Source: Escherichia phage EcS1. From it: a stretch of DNA of 64,000 nt. The position numbers and the translations under genes are program-made. Below the pieces are notes generated by a model that was not told the DNA's origin, made no database searches, and saw only the letters and a list, made by a program, of their open reading frames with translations. Below, one piece after another: positions 23,117-51,882 of the stretch. The stretch lies in the sequence record NC_055721.1, one strand, 5' to 3'. Position 1 is the stretch's first letter; every line of letters starts with the position of its first letter.

Positions 23117-23515
23117 TTAACGAGCTGAATTACTAAGTTGAAGCTTGATTTGTTCAACGGTATCCGGGTTGTCTATAATACTAAATTGAACTGTCACAAT
23201 AAGCGTATAACTATCATACAACGGTGTAACATCAACTAATAGTTTATCAATACGAGGTTCAAAGTTACGAATAGCAGATATGATATTACGCTGAGTTGTA
23301 TCTGCTGTAAGTGGTGTCATGTTTTCAAAAAGCTGATCAGACAACTCACATCCAAATTCTGGATTAAAGGGTCGAGACCCTTTACGAGTCGTAATAATGC
23401 CTAACAAACTGTTTTTAACTGCACGAGACCCAGTGGCTTTAGAAATATCGCGATCCCAAGCCATATTCATCTCGGGATCGATATCAGAGTATAATTGATT
23501 TATGTTTTTGATCAT
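23117..23515 (-). CDS. 25: Baseplate wedge protein gp25
   Basis: 132 aa; LYSDIDPEM, SLLGIITTRKGSRPF.PEFGC.LSDQLFENMTPLTADT match recalled T4 gp25. Confidence 0.93.
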   Translation of the reverse strand: MIKNINQLYSDIDPEMNMAWDRDISKATGSRAVKNSLLGIITTRKGSRPFNPEFGCELSDQLFENMTPLTADTTQRNIISAIRNFEPRIDKLLVDVTPLYDSYTLIVTVQFSIIDNPDTVEQIKLQLSNSAR

Positions 23516-24144
23516 TATAGTAGCTTAAAGAATTCTTTAAGTCCTTTAATTACATGAACACTGGTTTCGCCACATTCACATGAAATAGGCACTGCTAATA
23601 CTACTTGTGGTTTTAATAGCATAGCGGTAATGTCTTTTAGTGCTTCACTAGAGATAGCAGCATAAAGATCATCTAATTCTAAATCTGAAAGATCATCTAC
23701 TTTAATGACTGAACCATCAACATCAATGAACTCAATACACTTAGCAACCATCATAGCCATATTAGAGTCATCAAAAAGTTTAGGGTATTTGAACTTGACC
23801 TTAAAGTTAGTGAATTCCCACACCAGGGGCTCAGAGGGAGCATCAATTTGTGCATGTGTAAAGTTAAGTGGCACCTCTTGTTCCCGCTTACAGGCACACA
23901 CCCACGTATGCTCATGATTAACTTCACCTAATGAATGAGCCCAAAGTTTAATGACAAGCAATTCAGATTCTTGGCGATTAAGGTTATCAGCATCAGTACA
24001 GTTTTTAATCAGTTCTACGATGGCTAAGTCTAATGTTCCCTTAAGCTTTGCATGCATAAGGTCTTTATATTCTCTAAGAGTAAATGCTCGGCAATTAACC
24101 ACTTTACCTGAGACATGTACTGTAAATTTATATTCAAAGTTCAT
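23515..24144 (-). CDS. 26: Baseplate hub subunit gp26
   Basis: 209 aa, synteny 25-26 divergent from 51. Confidence 0.8.
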   Translation of the reverse strand: MNFEYKFTVHVSGKVVNCRAFTLREYKDLMHAKLKGTLDLAIVELIKNCTDADNLNRQESELLVIKLWAHSLGEVNHEHTWVCACKREQEVPLNFTHAQIDAPSEPLVWEFTNFKVKFKYPKLFDDSNMAMMVAKCIEFIDVDGSVIKVDDLSDLELDDLYAAISSEALKDITAMLLKPQVVLAVPISCECGETSVHVIKGLKEFFKLL

Positions 24145-24170
24145 AAAATAGTTCCTCTTATATGTGTATT

Positions 24171-24178
24171 TATAAATA
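24171..24178 (+). promoter_or_regulatory. Late promoter TATAAATA upstream of gene 51
   Basis: Perfect box 17 nt before ATG. Confidence 0.6.
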
Positions 24179-24194
24179 GATGAAAGGAGATACT

Positions 24195-24947
24195 ATGGCT
24201 AATATCGTACGTTGCAATTTGCCTGATGGTACTCATCGTTTCAAGCCGTTCACAGTCGCAGATTATCGAGATTTCTTGTTAGTTCGAAATGACATGAACA
24301 CTAAATCAAAAGAAGAACAAATCGAATTGCTTGACGATCTCTTAGATGATTATTTCGATGAATATCCTAAATCATGGCGCCCTTACATTTTTATTTCAGT
24401 TTTTACTTCATCTATCGGTAAAACAAAAATACCTGTAGCATATGAATGTTCTAAATGTGGTAACACAAAACGATTCATGATTAACCTGGCCCAACCGCCA
24501 TTAACAGCTCCAACCATTGAATGCTCAGGTGTCAAAATCAAATTCAAATACCCAAATGAATTCACTGATGACTTAGTCCAATTAGTCGCTGACAATATCG
24601 ATTCAGTCGAAGACAGTGAAGCTGTTTATAAGTGGGATGAACTTGATAATGAAACTAAAGTTCAAGTGATTGATTCTATTGATTACAAATCATTTGAAGC
24701 TCTTATCAAGAAAATGAAACCACTTTATATAGAAGTTAATTACGGCTGCTGTACAAAACACCAATATGTTTATGATTCATTAGTAGATGTATTTAAATTA
24801 TTATTGAACCCAGATGAAGTCTTTTCTTTTTATCAAGTGAATCATCTTTTAGTTAAAAGTCATTATGACTTAAATTCTGTTATGAGTATGATTCCAATTG
24901 AAAGAAGTATTGCTTTATCATTAGTCGAAAAGGACCTTAAGAAATGA
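24195..24947 (+). CDS. 51: Baseplate hub assembly protein gp51 (start chosen at second ATG after AAAGGAGA RBS)
   Basis: Synteny; TATAAATA box at 24171-24178; RBS aaggaga then ATG at 24195. Confidence 0.8.
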   Translation: MANIVRCNLPDGTHRFKPFTVADYRDFLLVRNDMNTKSKEEQIELLDDLLDDYFDEYPKSWRPYIFISVFTSSIGKTKIPVAYECSKCGNTKRFMINLAQPPLTAPTIECSGVKIKFKYPNEFTDDLVQLVADNIDSVEDSEAVYKWDELDNETKVQVIDSIDYKSFEALIKKMKPLYIEVNYGCCTKHQYVYDSLVDVFKLLLNPDEVFSFYQVNHLLVKSHYDLNSVMSMIPIERSIALSLVEKDLKK

Positions 24948-26152
24948 CCAAAACAGTCCAGATGGCTGGGTATCCTAATATTAGTATCAAGCTATATGAA
25001 AACTATGATGCTTGGCTTGAAAATAGATTTGTTGAACTTGCTGCTACATTCACTACACTCACAATGAGAGATGGACTTTATGGAAACAATGAAGGCCTTC
25101 TTCAGTTCTATGATAACAAGAATCTCCATACTAAAATGGATGGTGAACAAGTCATTCAGATTTCTGTAGCTAATGCTAACACTCAAAGAACATTATCTCG
25201 TATCTATGGATGTAAACACTTTGCTGTAGGTGTTGACTCTAAAAGTGATAACATCATTACGATTCAATTAGCACCAATTCATATTTTAGAAGACTTGAAA
25301 TTCTCAAGAACATTTTTTGCTAATGCCTCACAAAGTATTAACGAAATGATTAACGTCATCTATCAAGACCGACCGTTAATTGCACCACCCGTTGAATCAC
25401 TTAACATATATGTTCCTAAGGTTCCATGGTGTGGCAATGTTCCTAAATACTATGACTTCGTTCGCGATACTGGGTTAGCTGTTGATTCTGACCAATTCGT
25501 TTTTGTTTGGGAAGATATCCAAGGCATCAGGTTCATGGATTATCAACAAATGACTGCTCAAGAAGCTAAAACATTTGTTGTTGGTGAACCAAGACTAATT
25601 GGACAATATGTTAATCAATTAGAAACACCTATCGCATTTGACTTTGAATGGCTAACTAAAGCTAACCAACACACACGTAAGCCAATGACTAACGTTACGA
25701 TATATGCTCATTCATTTATGGATAAAGAGGTTACTCGTATTGTTGTTGGTGAAGGACAAAATAGTGTATTAGTTTCACGTTCAGGTGCTTATGCTGAACA
25801 GATTTATCGTAACGGTTATGAAGAAGCATTGCGATTAGGAACAATGGCTCAATACGATGGTTATGCTCACGTGAAGGTATACGGTGACTTTGAATTATGC
25901 CCAGGTCAAAAATTAAACTTTGCTGATATTAAGAACCAATTCGTATCTGATTTTTATATTGATGAAGTGATTCATGAAATAAGCAATAATCAATCAATCA
26001 CTAACATCTATGCATTTACAAATGGTAAGCCGATTACACCGGTAGAACCAATTAAGGTGAAAAATGAACTTAAAACTTATAATCCCGATGAAGACATTGA
26101 AACTGAATGGGAAGGACCTCAAGATCCCGAAACTGGGACTGAAACACCATAA
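24944..26152 (+). CDS. 27: Baseplate hub subunit gp27
   Basis: 402 aa, synteny. Confidence 0.85.
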   Translation: MTKTVQMAGYPNISIKLYENYDAWLENRFVELAATFTTLTMRDGLYGNNEGLLQFYDNKNLHTKMDGEQVIQISVANANTQRTLSRIYGCKHFAVGVDSKSDNIITIQLAPIHILEDLKFSRTFFANASQSINEMINVIYQDRPLIAPPVESLNIYVPKVPWCGNVPKYYDFVRDTGLAVDSDQFVFVWEDIQGIRFMDYQQMTAQEAKTFVVGEPRLIGQYVNQLETPIAFDFEWLTKANQHTRKPMTNVTIYAHSFMDKEVTRIVVGEGQNSVLVSRSGAYAEQIYRNGYEEALRLGTMAQYDGYAHVKVYGDFELCPGQKLNFADIKNQFVSDFYIDEVIHEISNNQSITNIYAFTNGKPITPVEPIKVKNELKTYNPDEDIETEWEGPQDPETGTETP

Positions 26153-26606
26153 ACTAGTTCGTGATGTCCGCGGCCCAGATGAGAATCTTAAAATACTAAT
26201 GGATTCTATATGTCCTGGTTTAACGGCTGCTGAAACAGATTTCGTTGCTCTTCATGTATTAGCATTTAATAATCGTTTGAAAGATGAAGTCACAATAGAT
26301 GGCTTCACTTATAAATTGAATGACATTTATATTTGTCAACGATTAGAACAACAATTTGCTGGTCATACATTCTATTTCAGGTCTAATAAGCCATTTGAAC
26401 AGTTCGGACCAGTCGATGATGTATTAGAGAAATGTTTCTTAAAAGTAGATAATTCTACCGAATGCCCTGATTTCATGGGTATGCCTGCATTTGTTTCTAA
26501 ATGGGCTGATGATATTACTTCGACTGTAGCTATTCCTGGTCCTAATGGCCCTATCAAAGGAATAATACCTATTATGGACATTTTAAATGATTCAACCAAA
26601 CAGTGA
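26064..26606 (+). CDS. 28: Baseplate hub distal subunit gp28 (start uncertain; overlaps gp27 end by 89 nt)
   Basis: 180 aa vs about 177 aa in T4; AAGGTGA RBS upstream of 26064. Confidence 0.7.
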   Translation: MNLKLIIPMKTLKLNGKDLKIPKLGLKHHKLVRDVRGPDENLKILMDSICPGLTAAETDFVALHVLAFNNRLKDEVTIDGFTYKLNDIYICQRLEQQFAGHTFYFRSNKPFEQFGPVDDVLEKCFLKVDNSTECPDFMGMPAFVSKWADDITSTVAIPGPNGPIKGIIPIMDILNDSTKQ

Positions 26607-28353
26607 TAAAACTACATTACGTCGTAAGAAAAAAATAGAAGATGGCGAACCTGAGCGTAAAGCTCAGGGGGCAGCATCAGATCAAACTGTTGTCCTTAAT
26701 GATATATCTGCTAAATTAACCGACGTACAAGCAGCAACTGAACTAATTTCAGATACGGTTGAAGCTAAAGGTAATCAAATATTAGGAAGCATTGATGGGC
26801 TTTCTAAAGGTCTAGAAAATGTAGAAGCGGCCTCAGAATTAGCGGCTGAAGCTTCAGAGAAAACAACTGAACAAGTTTCTAAACTCAATGATGTTGCTTC
26901 AGCTATTTCAGATAAATTAGCTAAGCTTTCAGAGATGTTCGAGCATAAGCTTTTTGGTGCATCTGATTTTGTTGGCCCACAACCTTCAGCATCTCCTGAT
27001 TCATCTTTACTTGAAGCAATTAAAGCTGCAATGCCTCTTGAAGTAATTCAGCCATCGTTGAATGAATTACTTGAAAAACTATTACCAGGAGGACAACCGC
27101 CAGAACCGCCAACTCCTCCACCTGAAGACCCTCCTGCAGAAGAGAAACCTTCTAAAGAAAAACCAGGTAAGAGTGAAGATTCTAAATTAGATGATTTGAT
27201 TAAAATCACTAAAGGAGGATTCAAAGCTTCAGTAGGTGTGTCTGACAAAATTGCTGGTATGTTGTTCAAATATACATTGACAGCAGCAGCCGAAGCAGCT
27301 AAATTAGCCGGGATGATGTTTGCACTTATTTTAGGTATTGATCTTATTAGAATTCATTTCAAATATTGGAGCGATTTGTTTAATAAGAGTTTTGAAGAGT
27401 TCTTTGCTAAAGCTGAAGAATGGGGACCTTTAATTCAATCAGTTGTTGAGATGGCTAAAAATATTTCTACAATGTGGGACGAAAAGAATTGGTCTGGTCT
27501 TGCAGGTGCTATTATTAAAGGCATCGGTGATATTACTATTGCATTAGCTGATTTAATGTTCTTAGGCATCACTAAAATTACGGCTGCAATGCTTCGTGCA
27601 ATGGGTATGGATGATAAAGCCTTAACTGTAGAAGGTTATGGTTTAGAACAATTCCAAAAATCAGGTGCAGTTCTTGATGAACAAGACCAAGATACTTTGG
27701 CTCGTTATCAAGATCGTAATATGCAAAAAGATACTAAGAAAAAAACTGAAACAGCTGAAAGGTACAAAAATAGCAAAGCGGCTCGTGAACAAGCAGTTAA
27801 TTATGGGTCTCTGACAAAAGAAGAAGCTGCTCAAATCGAAGCTGGTACTTATGGCAAAGAGAATGAAATTGCTAATCTTCCTGAAGATCAACGTATTAAA
27901 GCTATCAAGGCTCGTAATGAAACTCAAGCTGCATTAAAACGTACTAATGATTTAACAGCGACAACTCGAAGCAGTGATACTTCGCGCATCGAAAATCTCG
28001 ATAAATCTATTGACTCAATTGGTAAGCGTTTAGCTGATCCTGCATTAGCTAAAACACCTAAGCTTCGTAAAGACATGGAAGGCGAATTAGGTAAATTAAC
28101 GGCTGCAGTAGATAAGCTTAAAGCAGATGCTAAGGTAGCTCCAGCTCCGGTTGAAGAACAAGAAGATACTCAAAAATCTAATCGTATTGAACAACAGAAA
28201 CGAGCTAATGAAGCAGCTAAAAATGCTCCAGCATCAAATGCTCAAGTCACTAACAATACTGTTGTAAATAAGACTAGTAAAACCAATGTTACTGTGCCAC
28301 CTACAAGTTCAACTCCTGCTCCAGGCATGGGTGGCTCACGAAGGGTTAATTAA
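26587..28353 (+). CDS. 29: Baseplate hub subunit / tail length determinator gp29
   Basis: 588 aa; Pro-rich linker PPEPPTPPPEDPP; synteny. Confidence 0.85.
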   Translation: MIQPNSDKTTLRRKKKIEDGEPERKAQGAASDQTVVLNDISAKLTDVQAATELISDTVEAKGNQILGSIDGLSKGLENVEAASELAAEASEKTTEQVSKLNDVASAISDKLAKLSEMFEHKLFGASDFVGPQPSASPDSSLLEAIKAAMPLEVIQPSLNELLEKLLPGGQPPEPPTPPPEDPPAEEKPSKEKPGKSEDSKLDDLIKITKGGFKASVGVSDKIAGMLFKYTLTAAAEAAKLAGMMFALILGIDLIRIHFKYWSDLFNKSFEEFFAKAEEWGPLIQSVVEMAKNISTMWDEKNWSGLAGAIIKGIGDITIALADLMFLGITKITAAMLRAMGMDDKALTVEGYGLEQFQKSGAVLDEQDQDTLARYQDRNMQKDTKKKTETAERYKNSKAAREQAVNYGSLTKEEAAQIEAGTYGKENEIANLPEDQRIKAIKARNETQAALKRTNDLTATTRSSDTSRIENLDKSIDSIGKRLADPALAKTPKLRKDMEGELGKLTAAVDKLKADAKVAPAPVEEQEDTQKSNRIEQQKRANEAAKNAPASNAQVTNNTVVNKTSKTNVTVPPTSSTPAPGMGGSRRVN

Positions 28354-28361
28354 GGAATATT

Positions 28362-29420
28362 ATGGACATCAAAATTTTAGATGATTTCAAAGATAAGTTT
28401 GATTCACTTATTGGCGAAAAAACATCTGCCGGACAAAGTAAAGTTCAACCAATGAGAAAAACCATTAGCGCTCAATATCCGGCTGAGCGCGCCTCAGGCA
28501 ATGATGGTATAGACGATTTACGCATTAACGATCTTTATAAAAATGGGCTGTTATTTACAGCCTATGATTATAAATCAAGAACAACTCCTGATTTACGTTC
28601 AATGCGTTCATCTGTTATTGAAAGTGTTCGTAATAGTTTTGACCCTGTGAAAGGCACCACTGTTGGTGCCGGAACTCAATTCGATAAGAATCCTATTGCT
28701 AATATATTGTTACCACGTTCTAAATCTGACACCGATTCTATTTCGCATAAGTTCAATGATGTGGGTGAATCACTTATTACTCGTGGTGCAGGGACGGCCA
28801 CTGGTGTTTTAAGTAATGTCGCTTCTACCACAGTATTTGGTGCCATTGAATCAATTACTCAAGGTTGGATGTCAGACCATGGTGAACAGATTTATAACAC
28901 AGCACGTTCAATGTATGCTGGCCCTGATAATAGAAGCAAAGTATTCACGTGGGACTTAACCCCACGAAATGTTCAAGACTTAATTCAAATCATTAACATC
29001 TATGAGACCTTTAACTATTTCTCATATGGTGAAACAGGCAATAGTAATTTTGCTGCTGATTTGAAAGAACAGATTGACTCATGGTACAAAACCACATTCA
29101 TTAATAATCTGACACCAACAGGAGCTGACACTTCAAATACGATGATGGAACAAGTTACTTCGTTCTTGAGTAATGTCATTGTTGTGAGTAATCCAACAGT
29201 TTGGTTTATTCGTAACTTTGGTAAAACATCATCGTTTGACGGTCGCCCAGATGTGTTTGGGCCTTGTCAAATACAAAGTATAAGATTTGATAAGTCACCA
29301 AATGGTAATTTTAATGGATTGGCTATTGCTCCTAACTTACCAAGTTCATTCGTATTGGAAATCACTTTCCGTGAAATCTTGACATTGAACCGTGGAACTC
29401 TTTATAATGGAGCTCTATAA
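28362..29420 (+). CDS. 48: Baseplate tail-tube cap gp48
   Basis: 352 aa, synteny 29-48-54. Confidence 0.85.
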   Translation: MDIKILDDFKDKFDSLIGEKTSAGQSKVQPMRKTISAQYPAERASGNDGIDDLRINDLYKNGLLFTAYDYKSRTTPDLRSMRSSVIESVRNSFDPVKGTTVGAGTQFDKNPIANILLPRSKSDTDSISHKFNDVGESLITRGAGTATGVLSNVASTTVFGAIESITQGWMSDHGEQIYNTARSMYAGPDNRSKVFTWDLTPRNVQDLIQIINIYETFNYFSYGETGNSNFAADLKEQIDSWYKTTFINNLTPTGADTSNTMMEQVTSFLSNVIVVSNPTVWFIRNFGKTSSFDGRPDVFGPCQIQSIRFDKSPNGNFNGLAIAPNLPSSFVLEITFREILTLNRGTLYNGAL

Positions 29421-51874: not shown

Positions 51875-51882
51875 TATAAATA
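51875..51882 (+). promoter_or_regulatory. Late promoter TATAAATA upstream of I-TevI-like HEG
   Basis: Perfect box 26 nt before ATG, GAGGAG RBS between. Confidence 0.55.

What the first reader, a model, noticed from the sequence alone, without database searches (positions are those of the whole stretch)
26064..26152. 89-nt out-of-frame overlap between gene 27 and the predicted gene 28 start
The first ATG with an AAGGTGA RBS for gene 28 lies 89 nt inside gene 27. Either the two hub subunits are tightly coupled, or gene 28 starts at a later ATG (26088 or 26196) lacking an obvious RBS.
Basis: seen in the sequence. Interest (0 to 1): 0.2.

Follow-up and report, generated by a model that had tools for sequence, protein, structure and literature searches.

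The report
Conserved gene 27/28 overlap, T4-like phage
The 89-base overlap is real, but it is the ordinary arrangement found in T4 and its close relatives: the small hub protein gene 28 starts at its own strong ribosome-binding site inside the poorly conserved tail end of gene 27.

Summary
gp27 (24944-26152) and gp28 (26064-26606) overlap by 89 nt, out of frame, in a T4-like baseplate-hub cluster (51-27-28-29).

The upstream ATG at 26064 is the real gp28 start:
- It is the first possible start, because TGA at 26058-60 closes the frame.
- Its Shine-Dalgarno AAGGTGA pairs at -8.5 kcal/mol, against -0.4 for 26088 and -2.9 for 26199.
- MNLxLI(L/I)P plus AAGGTnAAAAATG is conserved in all 39 distinct Tevenvirinae-type junctions.
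- phrog_1140 matches from residue 1.
- A predicted beta-hairpin and helix (aa 9-31) lie inside the overlap.

T4 itself is annotated with a 56-nt overlap, and relatives range from 29 to 101 nt. Substitutions follow the gp28 frame. The overlapped gp27 tail varies in length (9-33 aa) and sequence and is predicted disordered. Its stop moves through changes that are silent in gp28. More distant T4-like phages have gp27's stop abutting the gp28 ATG.

The 89-nt length is roughly what chance gives (P about 0.07). Tight termination-reinitiation coupling is unlikely, and a frameshift fusion, as annotated in phage Moon, has no support.

This is ordinary and already known. Its practical value is in fixing inconsistent gp28 start calls in public records.

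The parts
24171..24178 (+). T4-type late promoter box TATAAATA. It is the only one on the + strand between 24171 and 51875, so gp51-27-28-29 are presumably one late transcript.
   Evidence: 16 boxes in the window against 5.8 expected
24944..26152 (+). Gene 27, baseplate hub subunit, 402 aa. The folded part ends near aa 360, and aa 371-402 form a predicted disordered tail.
   Evidence: Pfam PF09097 and PF09096; 1K28/5IV5 gp27 E 6e-161; AF2 pLDDT <50 for 371-402
26054..26060 (+). Shine-Dalgarno AAGGTGA of gene 28. It is embedded in gp27 codons for I-K-V-K. Its last three bases (TGA, 26058-26060) are the stop that closes the gp28 frame upstream.
   Evidence: -8.5 kcal/mol; AAGGTnAAAA conserved in 18 of 21 distinct upstream sequences, the others being AAGGAAAAAA and CGAGTTAAAA
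26064..26606 (+). Gene 28, baseplate hub distal subunit, 180 aa (20.3 kDa), starting at ATG 26064.
   Evidence: PF11110 204.7 bits; phrog_1140 profile 1-174 matches aa 1-175; tblastn alignments to T4 and others start at aa 1; alignments A1 and A2
26064..26152 (+). The 89-nt out-of-frame overlap. It covers gp28 aa 1-29 (beta-hairpin 9-22, start of helix 26-31) and gp27 aa 374-402 (NELKTYNPDEDIETEWEGPQDPETGTETP).
26150..26152 (+). gp27 stop TAA, formed by the wobble T of gp28 His29 (CAT) plus the AA of Lys30. In phage X20, the gp28-silent CAC makes CAA and moves the stop 12 nt downstream.
26088..26090 (+). Rejected alternative start (Met9): no Shine-Dalgarno sequence, and the Met is not conserved.
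26199..26201 (+). Rejected alternative start (Met46). It has no Shine-Dalgarno sequence and would delete conserved structure.
26587..28353 (+). Gene 29, tape measure / hub protein. It overlaps the end of gp28 by 20 nt.
   Evidence: PF25671

Best explanation
This is the orthologue of the gene 27/gene 28 junction of phage T4.

Gene 28 is translated from AUG 26064 by de novo initiation at its own strong Shine-Dalgarno sequence (AAGGUGA). That site sits in an unstructured, A/U-rich stretch of the late polycistronic 51-27-28-29 mRNA, inside the last codons of the gp27 coding region.

In more distant T4-like phages, gp27 stops at the gp28 AUG. In the T4 subfamily that stop is absent, so gp27 reads on in the other frame until the next stop happens to occur. 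Here that is 29 codons later, at TAA 26150-26152.

The extra gp27 residues form a short, acidic and polar, disordered tail. Its sequence is largely dictated by the gp28 codons. Selection acts on the gp28 frame, and the position of gp27's stop drifts through changes that are silent in gp28.

What is shown: the coordinates, the conservation, the frame-specific substitution pattern, the Shine-Dalgarno strength and the lack of RNA structure. What is inferred: that initiation is independent rather than coupled, that stop-start adjacency is the ancestral state, and that the tail is dispensable.
For: 1. Identity and synteny. The cluster reads gp26(-), gp51, gp27, gp28, gp29, with Pfam hits far above cut-off.

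2. The start is conserved.
- T4's annotated gp28 (177 aa) starts at the aligned Met and overlaps gp27 by 56 nt. MX01 overlaps by 47 nt, and CHI14 and Virsaitis27 by 101 nt.
- tblastn alignments against 1198 phage records start at query aa 1-3 in nearly all listed rows.
- All 39 distinct Tevenvirinae-type junctions show M(N/K)LxLI(L/I)P, and most carry AAGGTnAAAAATG. Overlaps range from 29 to 101 nt.

3. Substitutions follow the gp28 frame.
- Nucleotide diversity by gp28 codon position inside the overlap is 0.22 / 0.105 / 0.50, against 0.36 / 0.24 / 0.56 downstream.
- gp27's wobble position (gp28 position 2) is the least variable.
- Amino-acid identity over the same nucleotides is 0.68 for gp28 and 0.35 for the gp27 tail.
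- Window against X20: nine differences, none silent in gp27 and four silent in gp28, one of which moves the gp27 stop.

4. The Shine-Dalgarno duplex is -8.5 kcal/mol, against -0.4 and -2.9 for the later ATGs. Local RNA folds no better than shuffles (z -0.64 and -0.94).

5. Structure.
- The gp28 AF2 model (pLDDT 86.7) places strands 9-14 and 17-22 and helix 26-31 inside the overlap.
- Homology to gp26/gp51 begins at gp28 aa 12.
- gp27 aa 371-402 have pLDDT <50.

6. Outgroups (Aeromonas, Acinetobacter and Krischvirus phages) have gp27's stop within -2 to +4 nt of the gp28 ATG.

7. The overlap length is close to the neutral expectation.
Against: - No experimental N-terminus or ribosome-profiling data for gp28 was found in the accessible literature.
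- The first 8 residues are modelled as coil with low confidence. Pfam PF11110 starts only at aa 21. So the structural data alone do not separate 26064 from 26088.
- An older T4 value of 17.3 kDa for gp28 (PMC3004832) equals a 152-aa form starting at T4 Met26 after gp27's stop. The downstream start has therefore been used before for T4.
- Observed overlaps tend to exceed the simulated median, none is shorter than 29 nt, and the Leu3 codon TTA is invariant (CTT would create an early gp27 stop). Weak selection for some gp27 tail is not excluded.
- Independent versus coupled initiation was not tested directly.
Confidence: 0.85

Rival explanations
1. Gene 28 starts at the second in-frame ATG (26088, Met9), giving a 172-aa protein. 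The upstream ATG and Shine-Dalgarno sequence would be a by-product of gp27 coding.
For: - Residues 1-8 are coil with low pLDDT in the model.
- Profile homology to gp26/gp51 begins at aa 12, and Pfam begins at aa 21.
Against: - There is no Shine-Dalgarno sequence (-0.4 kcal/mol).
- Met9 is L, I, Q or T in most relatives, including T4.
- Residues 1-8 are conserved while their wobble positions vary (pi3 0.45-0.77 at codons 2 and 4-8; codon 3, TTA, is invariant), the signature of coding in that frame.
- phrog_1140 matches from residue 1.
Confidence: 0.04
2. Gene 28 starts after gene 27 ends, at ATG 26199 (Met46, 135 aa), with no overlap. This is how the X20 and Kc304 records are annotated, and it is analogous to the old 152-aa T4 form.
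For: - The RefSeq X20 and GenBank Kc304 records use the equivalent ATG.
- The Leiman 2010 table lists gp28 as 17.3 kDa, the mass of a 152-aa T4 form.
Against: - It would delete the conserved hairpin and helices H26-31 and H38-49, along with invariant K10, P22 and G25.
- The Shine-Dalgarno pairing is weak (-2.9 kcal/mol).
- T4's Met26 is CTG Leu in the window and in most relatives.
- The nearly identical CHI14 and Virsaitis27 genomes are annotated with the long form.
Confidence: 0.01
3. Tight translational coupling: gp28 synthesis depends on ribosomes translating gp27. These would either reinitiate after terminating at 26152 by back-scanning, or be needed to open the gp28 ribosome-binding site.
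For: - Both genes sit on the same late transcript.
- Outgroups have the classic ATGA / TAATG stop-start overlaps typical of coupling.
- The Nieradko & Koszalka reference cited in PMC3004832 reports a gp27-gp28 interaction, so balanced synthesis would make sense.
Against: - The stop is 89 nt downstream of the start, and this distance varies from 29 to 101 nt in relatives. From general knowledge, reinitiation operates over only a few nucleotides to a few tens.
- The ribosome-binding site is strong and is not sequestered in structure.
Confidence: 0.1
4. A programmed frameshift (+1 or -2) inside the overlap makes a gp27-gp28 fusion, analogous to lambda G/GT tail assembly chaperones. This is how Citrobacter phage Moon is annotated.
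For: - The Moon record KM236240 carries a joined CDS labelled 'tape measure chaperone; GT-like fusion protein; T4 gp28-like'. BFVD holds it as a 545-aa protein.
- The pair lies immediately upstream of the tape-measure gene 29.
- A run CUU-AAA-A occurs at gp27 codons 376-377 in the window.
Against: - gp28 has its own conserved ATG and Shine-Dalgarno sequence.
- A TGA closes the gp28 frame one codon before the ATG in the window and in many relatives.
- No slippery site is conserved; the site reads AAA-A, AAA-T or AAA-C.
- The frame relation differs in outgroups: +2 rather than +1 in the Aeromonas and Krischvirus phages, and gp27 stops at or before the gp28 ATG in all outgroups.
- There is no stimulatory RNA structure and no Rfam match.
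- gp27 is a 402-aa structural hub protein, not a small chaperone.
- From textbook T4 genetics, genes 27 and 28 are separate complementation groups.
Confidence: 0.03
5. The gp27 C-terminal extension is itself functional, for example as an acidic tail contacting gp29 or gp28. On this view the overlap is maintained by selection on both frames.
For: - The extension is fixed across Tevenvirinae and Muldoonvirus, and none is shorter than 9 aa.
- Composition is consistently T/E/S/N/D-rich, at 72%.
- Observed lengths are mostly at or above the simulated median: P = 0.013 for X20 and 0.07 for the window.
- The Leu3 codon TTA is invariant.
Against: - Tail length ranges from 9 to 33 aa and amino-acid identity is only 0.35.
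- gp27's wobble position is the least variable site class.
- The tail is predicted disordered.
- The stop moves through single changes that are silent in gp28.
- Outgroups lack the tail altogether.
Confidence: 0.1

Closest known systems
Phage T4 genes 27 and 28 (gp27 391 aa; gp28 177 aa, P13336 / NP_049804.2)
   Same: The genes are orthologous and sit in the same order, 51-27-28-29. The gp28 N-terminus is the same (MNLNLILP against MNLKLIIP), as is the Shine-Dalgarno sequence (AAGGTTAAAAATG against AAGGTGAAAAATG). The overlap has the same +1 frame relation.
   Different: The overlap is 56 nt in T4 and 89 nt here. The gp27 tail is 18 aa (NEFKSDTTTEESSSSNKQ) in T4 and 29 aa here. T4 also has a downstream Met26, used in an older 17.3-kDa annotation; the window has CTG Leu at that position.
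Winklervirus phages CHI14, X20, Virsaitis27 and Kc304 (nearest relatives, about 81% nt identity)
   Same: The junction sequence is identical through the first 29 nt of gp28, and the tail type is the same.
   Different: Their overlap is 101 nt, because CAC replaces CAT at gp28 His29. The public annotations disagree: long form in CHI14 and Virsaitis27, 134-aa short form in X20 and Kc304.
Stop-start (ATGA / TAATG) translational coupling, as at the gp27-gp28 junction of Aeromonas, Acinetobacter and Krischvirus T4-like phages
   Same: It is the same gene pair with the same gp28 N-terminal domain, and the gp28 Shine-Dalgarno sequence lies in the last codons of gp27.
   Different: In those phages the gp27 stop lies within -2 to +4 nt of the ATG. 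Here it lies 89 nt past it, so reinitiation-type coupling is not expected.
Lambda G/GT-type tail assembly chaperone frameshift (the annotation applied to phage Moon gp27/gp28)
   Same: Two overlapping ORFs lie directly upstream of the tape-measure gene.
   Different: The downstream ORF has its own start and Shine-Dalgarno sequence. No slippery site is conserved, the frame relation is not conserved, and the upstream protein is the large structural hub protein.

Membership tests
T4 gp28 family (Pfam PF11110 Phage_hub_GP28; phrog_1140) | Sequence match above the curated cut-off | tested here: met
   PF11110 scores 204.7 bits against a cut-off of 21.5, covering aa 21-172. phrog_1140 gives E 1.6e-78, with aa 1-175 matching profile positions 1-174.
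T4 gp28 family (Pfam PF11110 Phage_hub_GP28; phrog_1140) | Position between gene 27 (hub) and gene 29 (tape measure) | tested here: met
   the same order holds in T4, MX01, X20, Melin, AS-gz and others
T4 gp28 family (Pfam PF11110 Phage_hub_GP28; phrog_1140) | Requirement for hub assembly, or presence in the hub | not testable with these tools
   Only literature statements for T4 are available, and they are themselves uncertain (PMC3004832). No solved structure was found by sequence or by fold.
T4 gp27 family (PF09097 + PF09096) | Both baseplate structural domains present, and homology to solved gp27 | tested here: met
   288.7 and 236.9 bits; 1K28_D E 6e-161 and 9F4A E 3e-169
T4-type 27/28 out-of-frame overlap with an internal, SD-led start | Downstream start codon and Shine-Dalgarno sequence inside the upstream ORF, conserved among relatives | tested here: met
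T4-type 27/28 out-of-frame overlap with an internal, SD-led start | Purifying selection in the downstream (gp28) frame across the overlap | tested here: met
   Codon-position diversity is 0.22 / 0.105 / 0.50. Amino-acid identity is 0.68 for gp28 against 0.35 for gp27.
T4-type 27/28 out-of-frame overlap with an internal, SD-led start | Protein N-terminus determined experimentally | not testable with these tools
   No N-terminal or ribosome-profiling data were found.
Termination-reinitiation translational coupling | Upstream stop within a few nucleotides of the downstream start | tested here: not met
   The stop is 89 nt downstream of the start. The feature is met only in outgroup phages.
G/GT-type programmed-frameshift tail assembly chaperone | Conserved slippery sequence in the overlap | tested here: not met
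   No site is conserved; the candidate reads AAA-A, AAA-T or AAA-C.
G/GT-type programmed-frameshift tail assembly chaperone | Downstream ORF lacks its own initiation site | tested here: not met
   A conserved ATG with a -8.5 kcal/mol Shine-Dalgarno sequence is present.
G/GT-type programmed-frameshift tail assembly chaperone | Located immediately upstream of the tape-measure gene | tested here: met
   gp28 ends at 26606 and gp29 (PF25671) starts at 26587.
G/GT-type programmed-frameshift tail assembly chaperone | Frame relation conserved across the family | tested here: not met
   The offset is +1 in Tevenvirinae and +2 in the Aeromonas and Krischvirus phages. In all outgroups, including the Acinetobacter phages (offset +1 or +2), gp27 stops at or before the ATG.

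The most novel reading that the evidence does not exclude
A small fraction of ribosomes translating gp27 could slip +1 inside the overlap, for example at CUU-AAA-A (26069-26075). That would make a gp27-gp28 fusion acting as a GT-like chaperone for the tape-measure protein gp29, as the phage Moon record asserts. The fixed loss of the ancestral stop in the T4 subfamily would then be adaptive rather than neutral.
Probability: 0.03. Interest if true: 0.55.

Novelty: already known. Interest (0 to 1): 0.1.

Why it matters
It matters mainly for annotation. Public records of close relatives disagree on the gp28 start:
- 134 aa in X20 and Kc304
- 106 aa in SP1
- a GTG start giving 162 aa in MHG19
- a gp27-gp28 'fusion' in Moon
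- an older 17.3-kDa value for T4

The comparative evidence here settles on the upstream, overlapping start.

It is also a clean small example of how an overlap arises and drifts. A lost stop lets the upstream gene read into the next gene's N-terminal codons. The new tail's sequence and length are then set by the downstream gene's codon choices.

It changes nothing about how T4-like baseplates are thought to work.

Tried and rejected
- Searching for a solved structure of gp28 found nothing. The sequence search gave no hit better than E 0.4, and Foldseek against the PDB gave no hit with E < 0.8.
- Single-sequence hhalign of gp28 against gp26 or gp51 was not significant (E 0.16 and 0.42). Only the profile-profile comparison was significant.
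- RNA structure or a known RNA element in the overlap, as a possible frameshift stimulator or RBS occluder, was not found. Folds were no better than shuffles, and Rfam gave no match at E <= 1.
- Literature searches for an experimental gp28 N-terminus or T4 start-site mapping found nothing usable. The T4 genome review PMC150520 is not held. Mentions of 'gp28' in the phage Milano and Goslar papers refer to unrelated proteins.
- The first run of the codon-resampling simulation timed out and was rerun.
- I considered whether the 89-nt length itself is selected and rejected the idea: P = 0.07 under synonymous resampling.

Full report
**What is there**

The window carries a T4-type baseplate-hub cluster:
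- gp25 (23117-23515, minus strand)
- gp26 (23515-24144, minus strand)
- gp51 (24180/24195-24947)
- gp27 (24944-26152)
- gp28 (26064-26606)
- gp29 (26587-28353)
- gp48 (28362-29420)

These come from the ORF list. Pfam assigns gp27, gp28, gp51 and gp29 far above the curated cut-offs.

The nearest records are Winklervirus phages (X20, CHI14), at about 81% nucleotide identity. An IMG/VR contig of 175,437 bp holds a locus (L010) whose gp28 is 100% identical.

The only T4-type late promoter box (TATAAATA) on the + strand upstream of the cluster is at 24171-24178. The next one on that strand is at 51875. So 51-27-28-29 are presumably co-transcribed.

**Checking the observation**

- gp27 ends with TAA at 26150-26152. 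The gp28 ORF begins with ATG at 26064. The overlap is 89 nt, with gp28 in frame +1 relative to gp27.
- AAGGTGA lies at 26054-26060. Its TGA (26058-26060) is an in-frame stop for gp28, so 26064 is the first possible start.
- The in-frame ATG at 26088 exists.

**Which start is used**

Shine-Dalgarno pairing to the 16S 3' end is strong only at the first ATG:

| Start | Duplex energy (kcal/mol) | Note |
|---|---|---|
| 26064 | -8.5 | top 2.2% of the 1260 ATGs in the window |
| 26088 | -0.4 | |
| 26199 | -2.9 | |

The RNA around the start folds no better than shuffled sequence (z -0.64 and -0.94).

Comparison with other phages points the same way:
- tblastn of the 180-aa form against 50,697 phage records found 1198 records. 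Alignments begin at query residues 1-3 in almost all listed rows, including T4.
- In T4, the annotated gp28 (177 aa) starts at the aligned Met and overlaps gp27 by 56 nt. MX01 overlaps by 47 nt. CHI14 and Virsaitis27 overlap by 101 nt.
- I examined 64 fetched loci. All 39 distinct Tevenvirinae-type junctions begin M(N/K)LxLI(L/I)P. In 18 of 21 distinct upstream sequences the ATG is preceded by AAGGTnAAAA.
- Met9 of the window is L, I, Q or T elsewhere.
- T4's second Met (Met26) is CTG Leu in the window.
- phrog_1140 matches residues 1-175 at profile positions 1-174.
- An AlphaFold model of gp28 (28-sequence alignment, pLDDT 86.7) places strands 9-14 and 17-22 and helix 26-31 inside the overlap. 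A start at 26199 would delete these elements.

**Which frame is under selection**

gp28 codon position 2 is gp27's wobble position, and gp28's wobble position is gp27 position 1. Mean pairwise nucleotide diversity by gp28 codon position:

| Region | Position 1 | Position 2 | Position 3 |
|---|---|---|---|
| Inside the overlap | 0.22 | 0.105 | 0.50 |
| Downstream gp28 | 0.36 | 0.24 | 0.56 |

- The overlapped N-terminus of gp28 is, if anything, better conserved than the rest of the protein. gp27's wobble is the least variable class of site.
- Over the same nucleotides, amino-acid identity is 0.68 for gp28 and 0.35 for the gp27 tail.
- Between the window and X20 there are nine differences in the overlap. 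None is silent in gp27 and four are silent in gp28. One of those, T26150C (His CAT to CAC), converts gp27's TAA to CAA and moves its stop 12 nt downstream.
- The gp27 tails are 9-33 aa long and 72% T/E/S/N/D. In the gp27 model, residues 371-402 have pLDDT below 50.

**How the overlap arose (inferred)**

- In Aeromonas (AS-gz, avDM1), Acinetobacter (Melin and others) and Krischvirus (GEC-3S, RB49-like) phages, gp27's stop lies within -2 to +4 nt of the gp28 ATG.
- By parsimony, stop-start adjacency is ancestral. The lineage leading to Tevenvirinae and Muldoonvirus lost that stop, and gp27 now reads on to the next chance stop.
- I resampled synonymous codons for gp28 using the window's codon usage. 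The median read-through was 44 nt, with P(>=89 nt) = 0.07. Most relatives fall within expectation.
- There is a mild excess of long overlaps, none is shorter than 29 nt, and the Leu3 codon TTA is invariant. Weak selection for some tail is therefore left open.

**Mechanism**

The best-supported reading is de novo initiation at a strong, unstructured ribosome-binding site embedded in the end of gp27, on a shared late transcript.

Classical termination-reinitiation coupling is not expected. The stop is 89 nt past the start, and that distance varies from 29 to 101 nt among relatives.

**The frameshift rival**

- The phage Moon record (KM236240) annotates gp27 as a 'tape measure chaperone' and a joined gp27-gp28 CDS as a 'GT-like fusion protein'. 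This surfaced as a 545-aa BFVD entry.
- I found no conserved slippery site; the best candidate is AAA followed by A, T or C.
- A stop closes the gp28 frame one codon before the ATG in many lineages.
- The frame relation is different in the outgroups.
- There is no RNA structure and no Rfam hit.
- gp27 is the large structural hub protein.
- By textbook T4 genetics, genes 27 and 28 are separate complementation groups.
- A minor fusion product is not strictly excluded.

**History and annotation**

- The Leiman et al. 2010 review lists gp28 as 17.3 kDa (PMC3004832). T4 gp28 from Met26 (152 aa) computes to 17.34 kDa, and the 177-aa form to 20.12 kDa. So an older T4 annotation evidently used the non-overlapping start.
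- Current records are inconsistent:

| Record | gp28 annotation |
|---|---|
| X20, Kc304 | 134 aa |
| SP1 | 106 aa |
| MHG19 | GTG start, 162 aa |
| Moon | gp27-gp28 fusion |
| T4, MX01, CHI14, Virsaitis27 | long, overlapping form |

**Verdict**

The start at 26064 is right, and the later starts are rejected. 'Tight coupling' is not the likely mechanism. The feature is the ordinary, already-annotated T4-type 27/28 overlap. Interest is low.

Noticed in passing
window 26064-26606 (gp28), 23515-24144 minus strand (gp26), 24195-24947 (gp51): gp28 looks like a distant paralogue of gp26 and gp51. Profile-profile hhalign gives Prob 84%, E 7.6e-6 over 125 columns, aligning gp28 aa 12-141 with gp26 aa 9-153. 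Foldseek of the gp28 model against BFVD hits gp26-like hub proteins (Aeromonas phage 25 gp26: E 1e-6, TM 0.56-0.61). gp28 lacks the four conserved Cys of gp26/gp51. InterPro and PHROGs keep them as separate families (IPR024342 against IPR024364; phrog_1140 against phrog_150). Three paralogues therefore surround gene 27 upstream of the tape-measure gene. Weak, non-significant fold hits to siphophage tail assembly chaperones were also seen (E 0.35-1.4).
   Followed up: partly
window 24167-24195: A 12-nt palindrome TATTTATAAATA provides divergent late-promoter boxes: 24167-24174 on the minus strand for gp26, and 24171-24178 on the plus strand for gp51. The first ATG of the gp51 ORF (24180) lies 1 nt (24179) after the box and has no Shine-Dalgarno sequence (-1.7 kcal/mol). 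ATG 24195 has a strong one (-8.7 kcal/mol) and matches the MANI(V/I)RC N-terminus of T4 and other gp51s. gp51 therefore probably starts at 24195.
   Followed up: partly
window 26587-26606: gp28 and gp29 overlap by 20 nt. The equivalent overlap is 17 nt in X20 and MX01, and 4 nt in T4. The gp29 ATG at 26587 has only a weak Shine-Dalgarno sequence (-3.0 kcal/mol). The gp29 start was not checked further.
   Followed up: no
L001 2800-3204 (X20), L062 1400-1804 (Kc304), L008 1684-2004 (SP1), L009 1534-2022 (MHG19), L061 1107-2745 (Moon): Public records of relatives carry truncated or fused gp28 annotations: 134 aa, 134 aa, 106 aa, a GTG start giving 162 aa, and a gp27-gp28 'GT-like fusion'. The conserved long ORF is present in all of them.
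   Followed up: yes
L002 1504-1512 (T4 gp28 codons 2-4): T4-type genomes read AAT TTA AAT at gp28 codons 2-4. In the gp28 frame this is a U UUA AAU heptamer of the -1 slippery form, and slipping there would shift into the gp27 frame. The window has AAC TTA AAA instead, so the motif is not conserved. It is probably incidental.
   Followed up: no
window, whole: There are 16 TATAAATA boxes against 5.8 expected from shuffles. Most lie on the + strand upstream of ORFs, consistent with a T4-type late-gene region.
   Followed up: no
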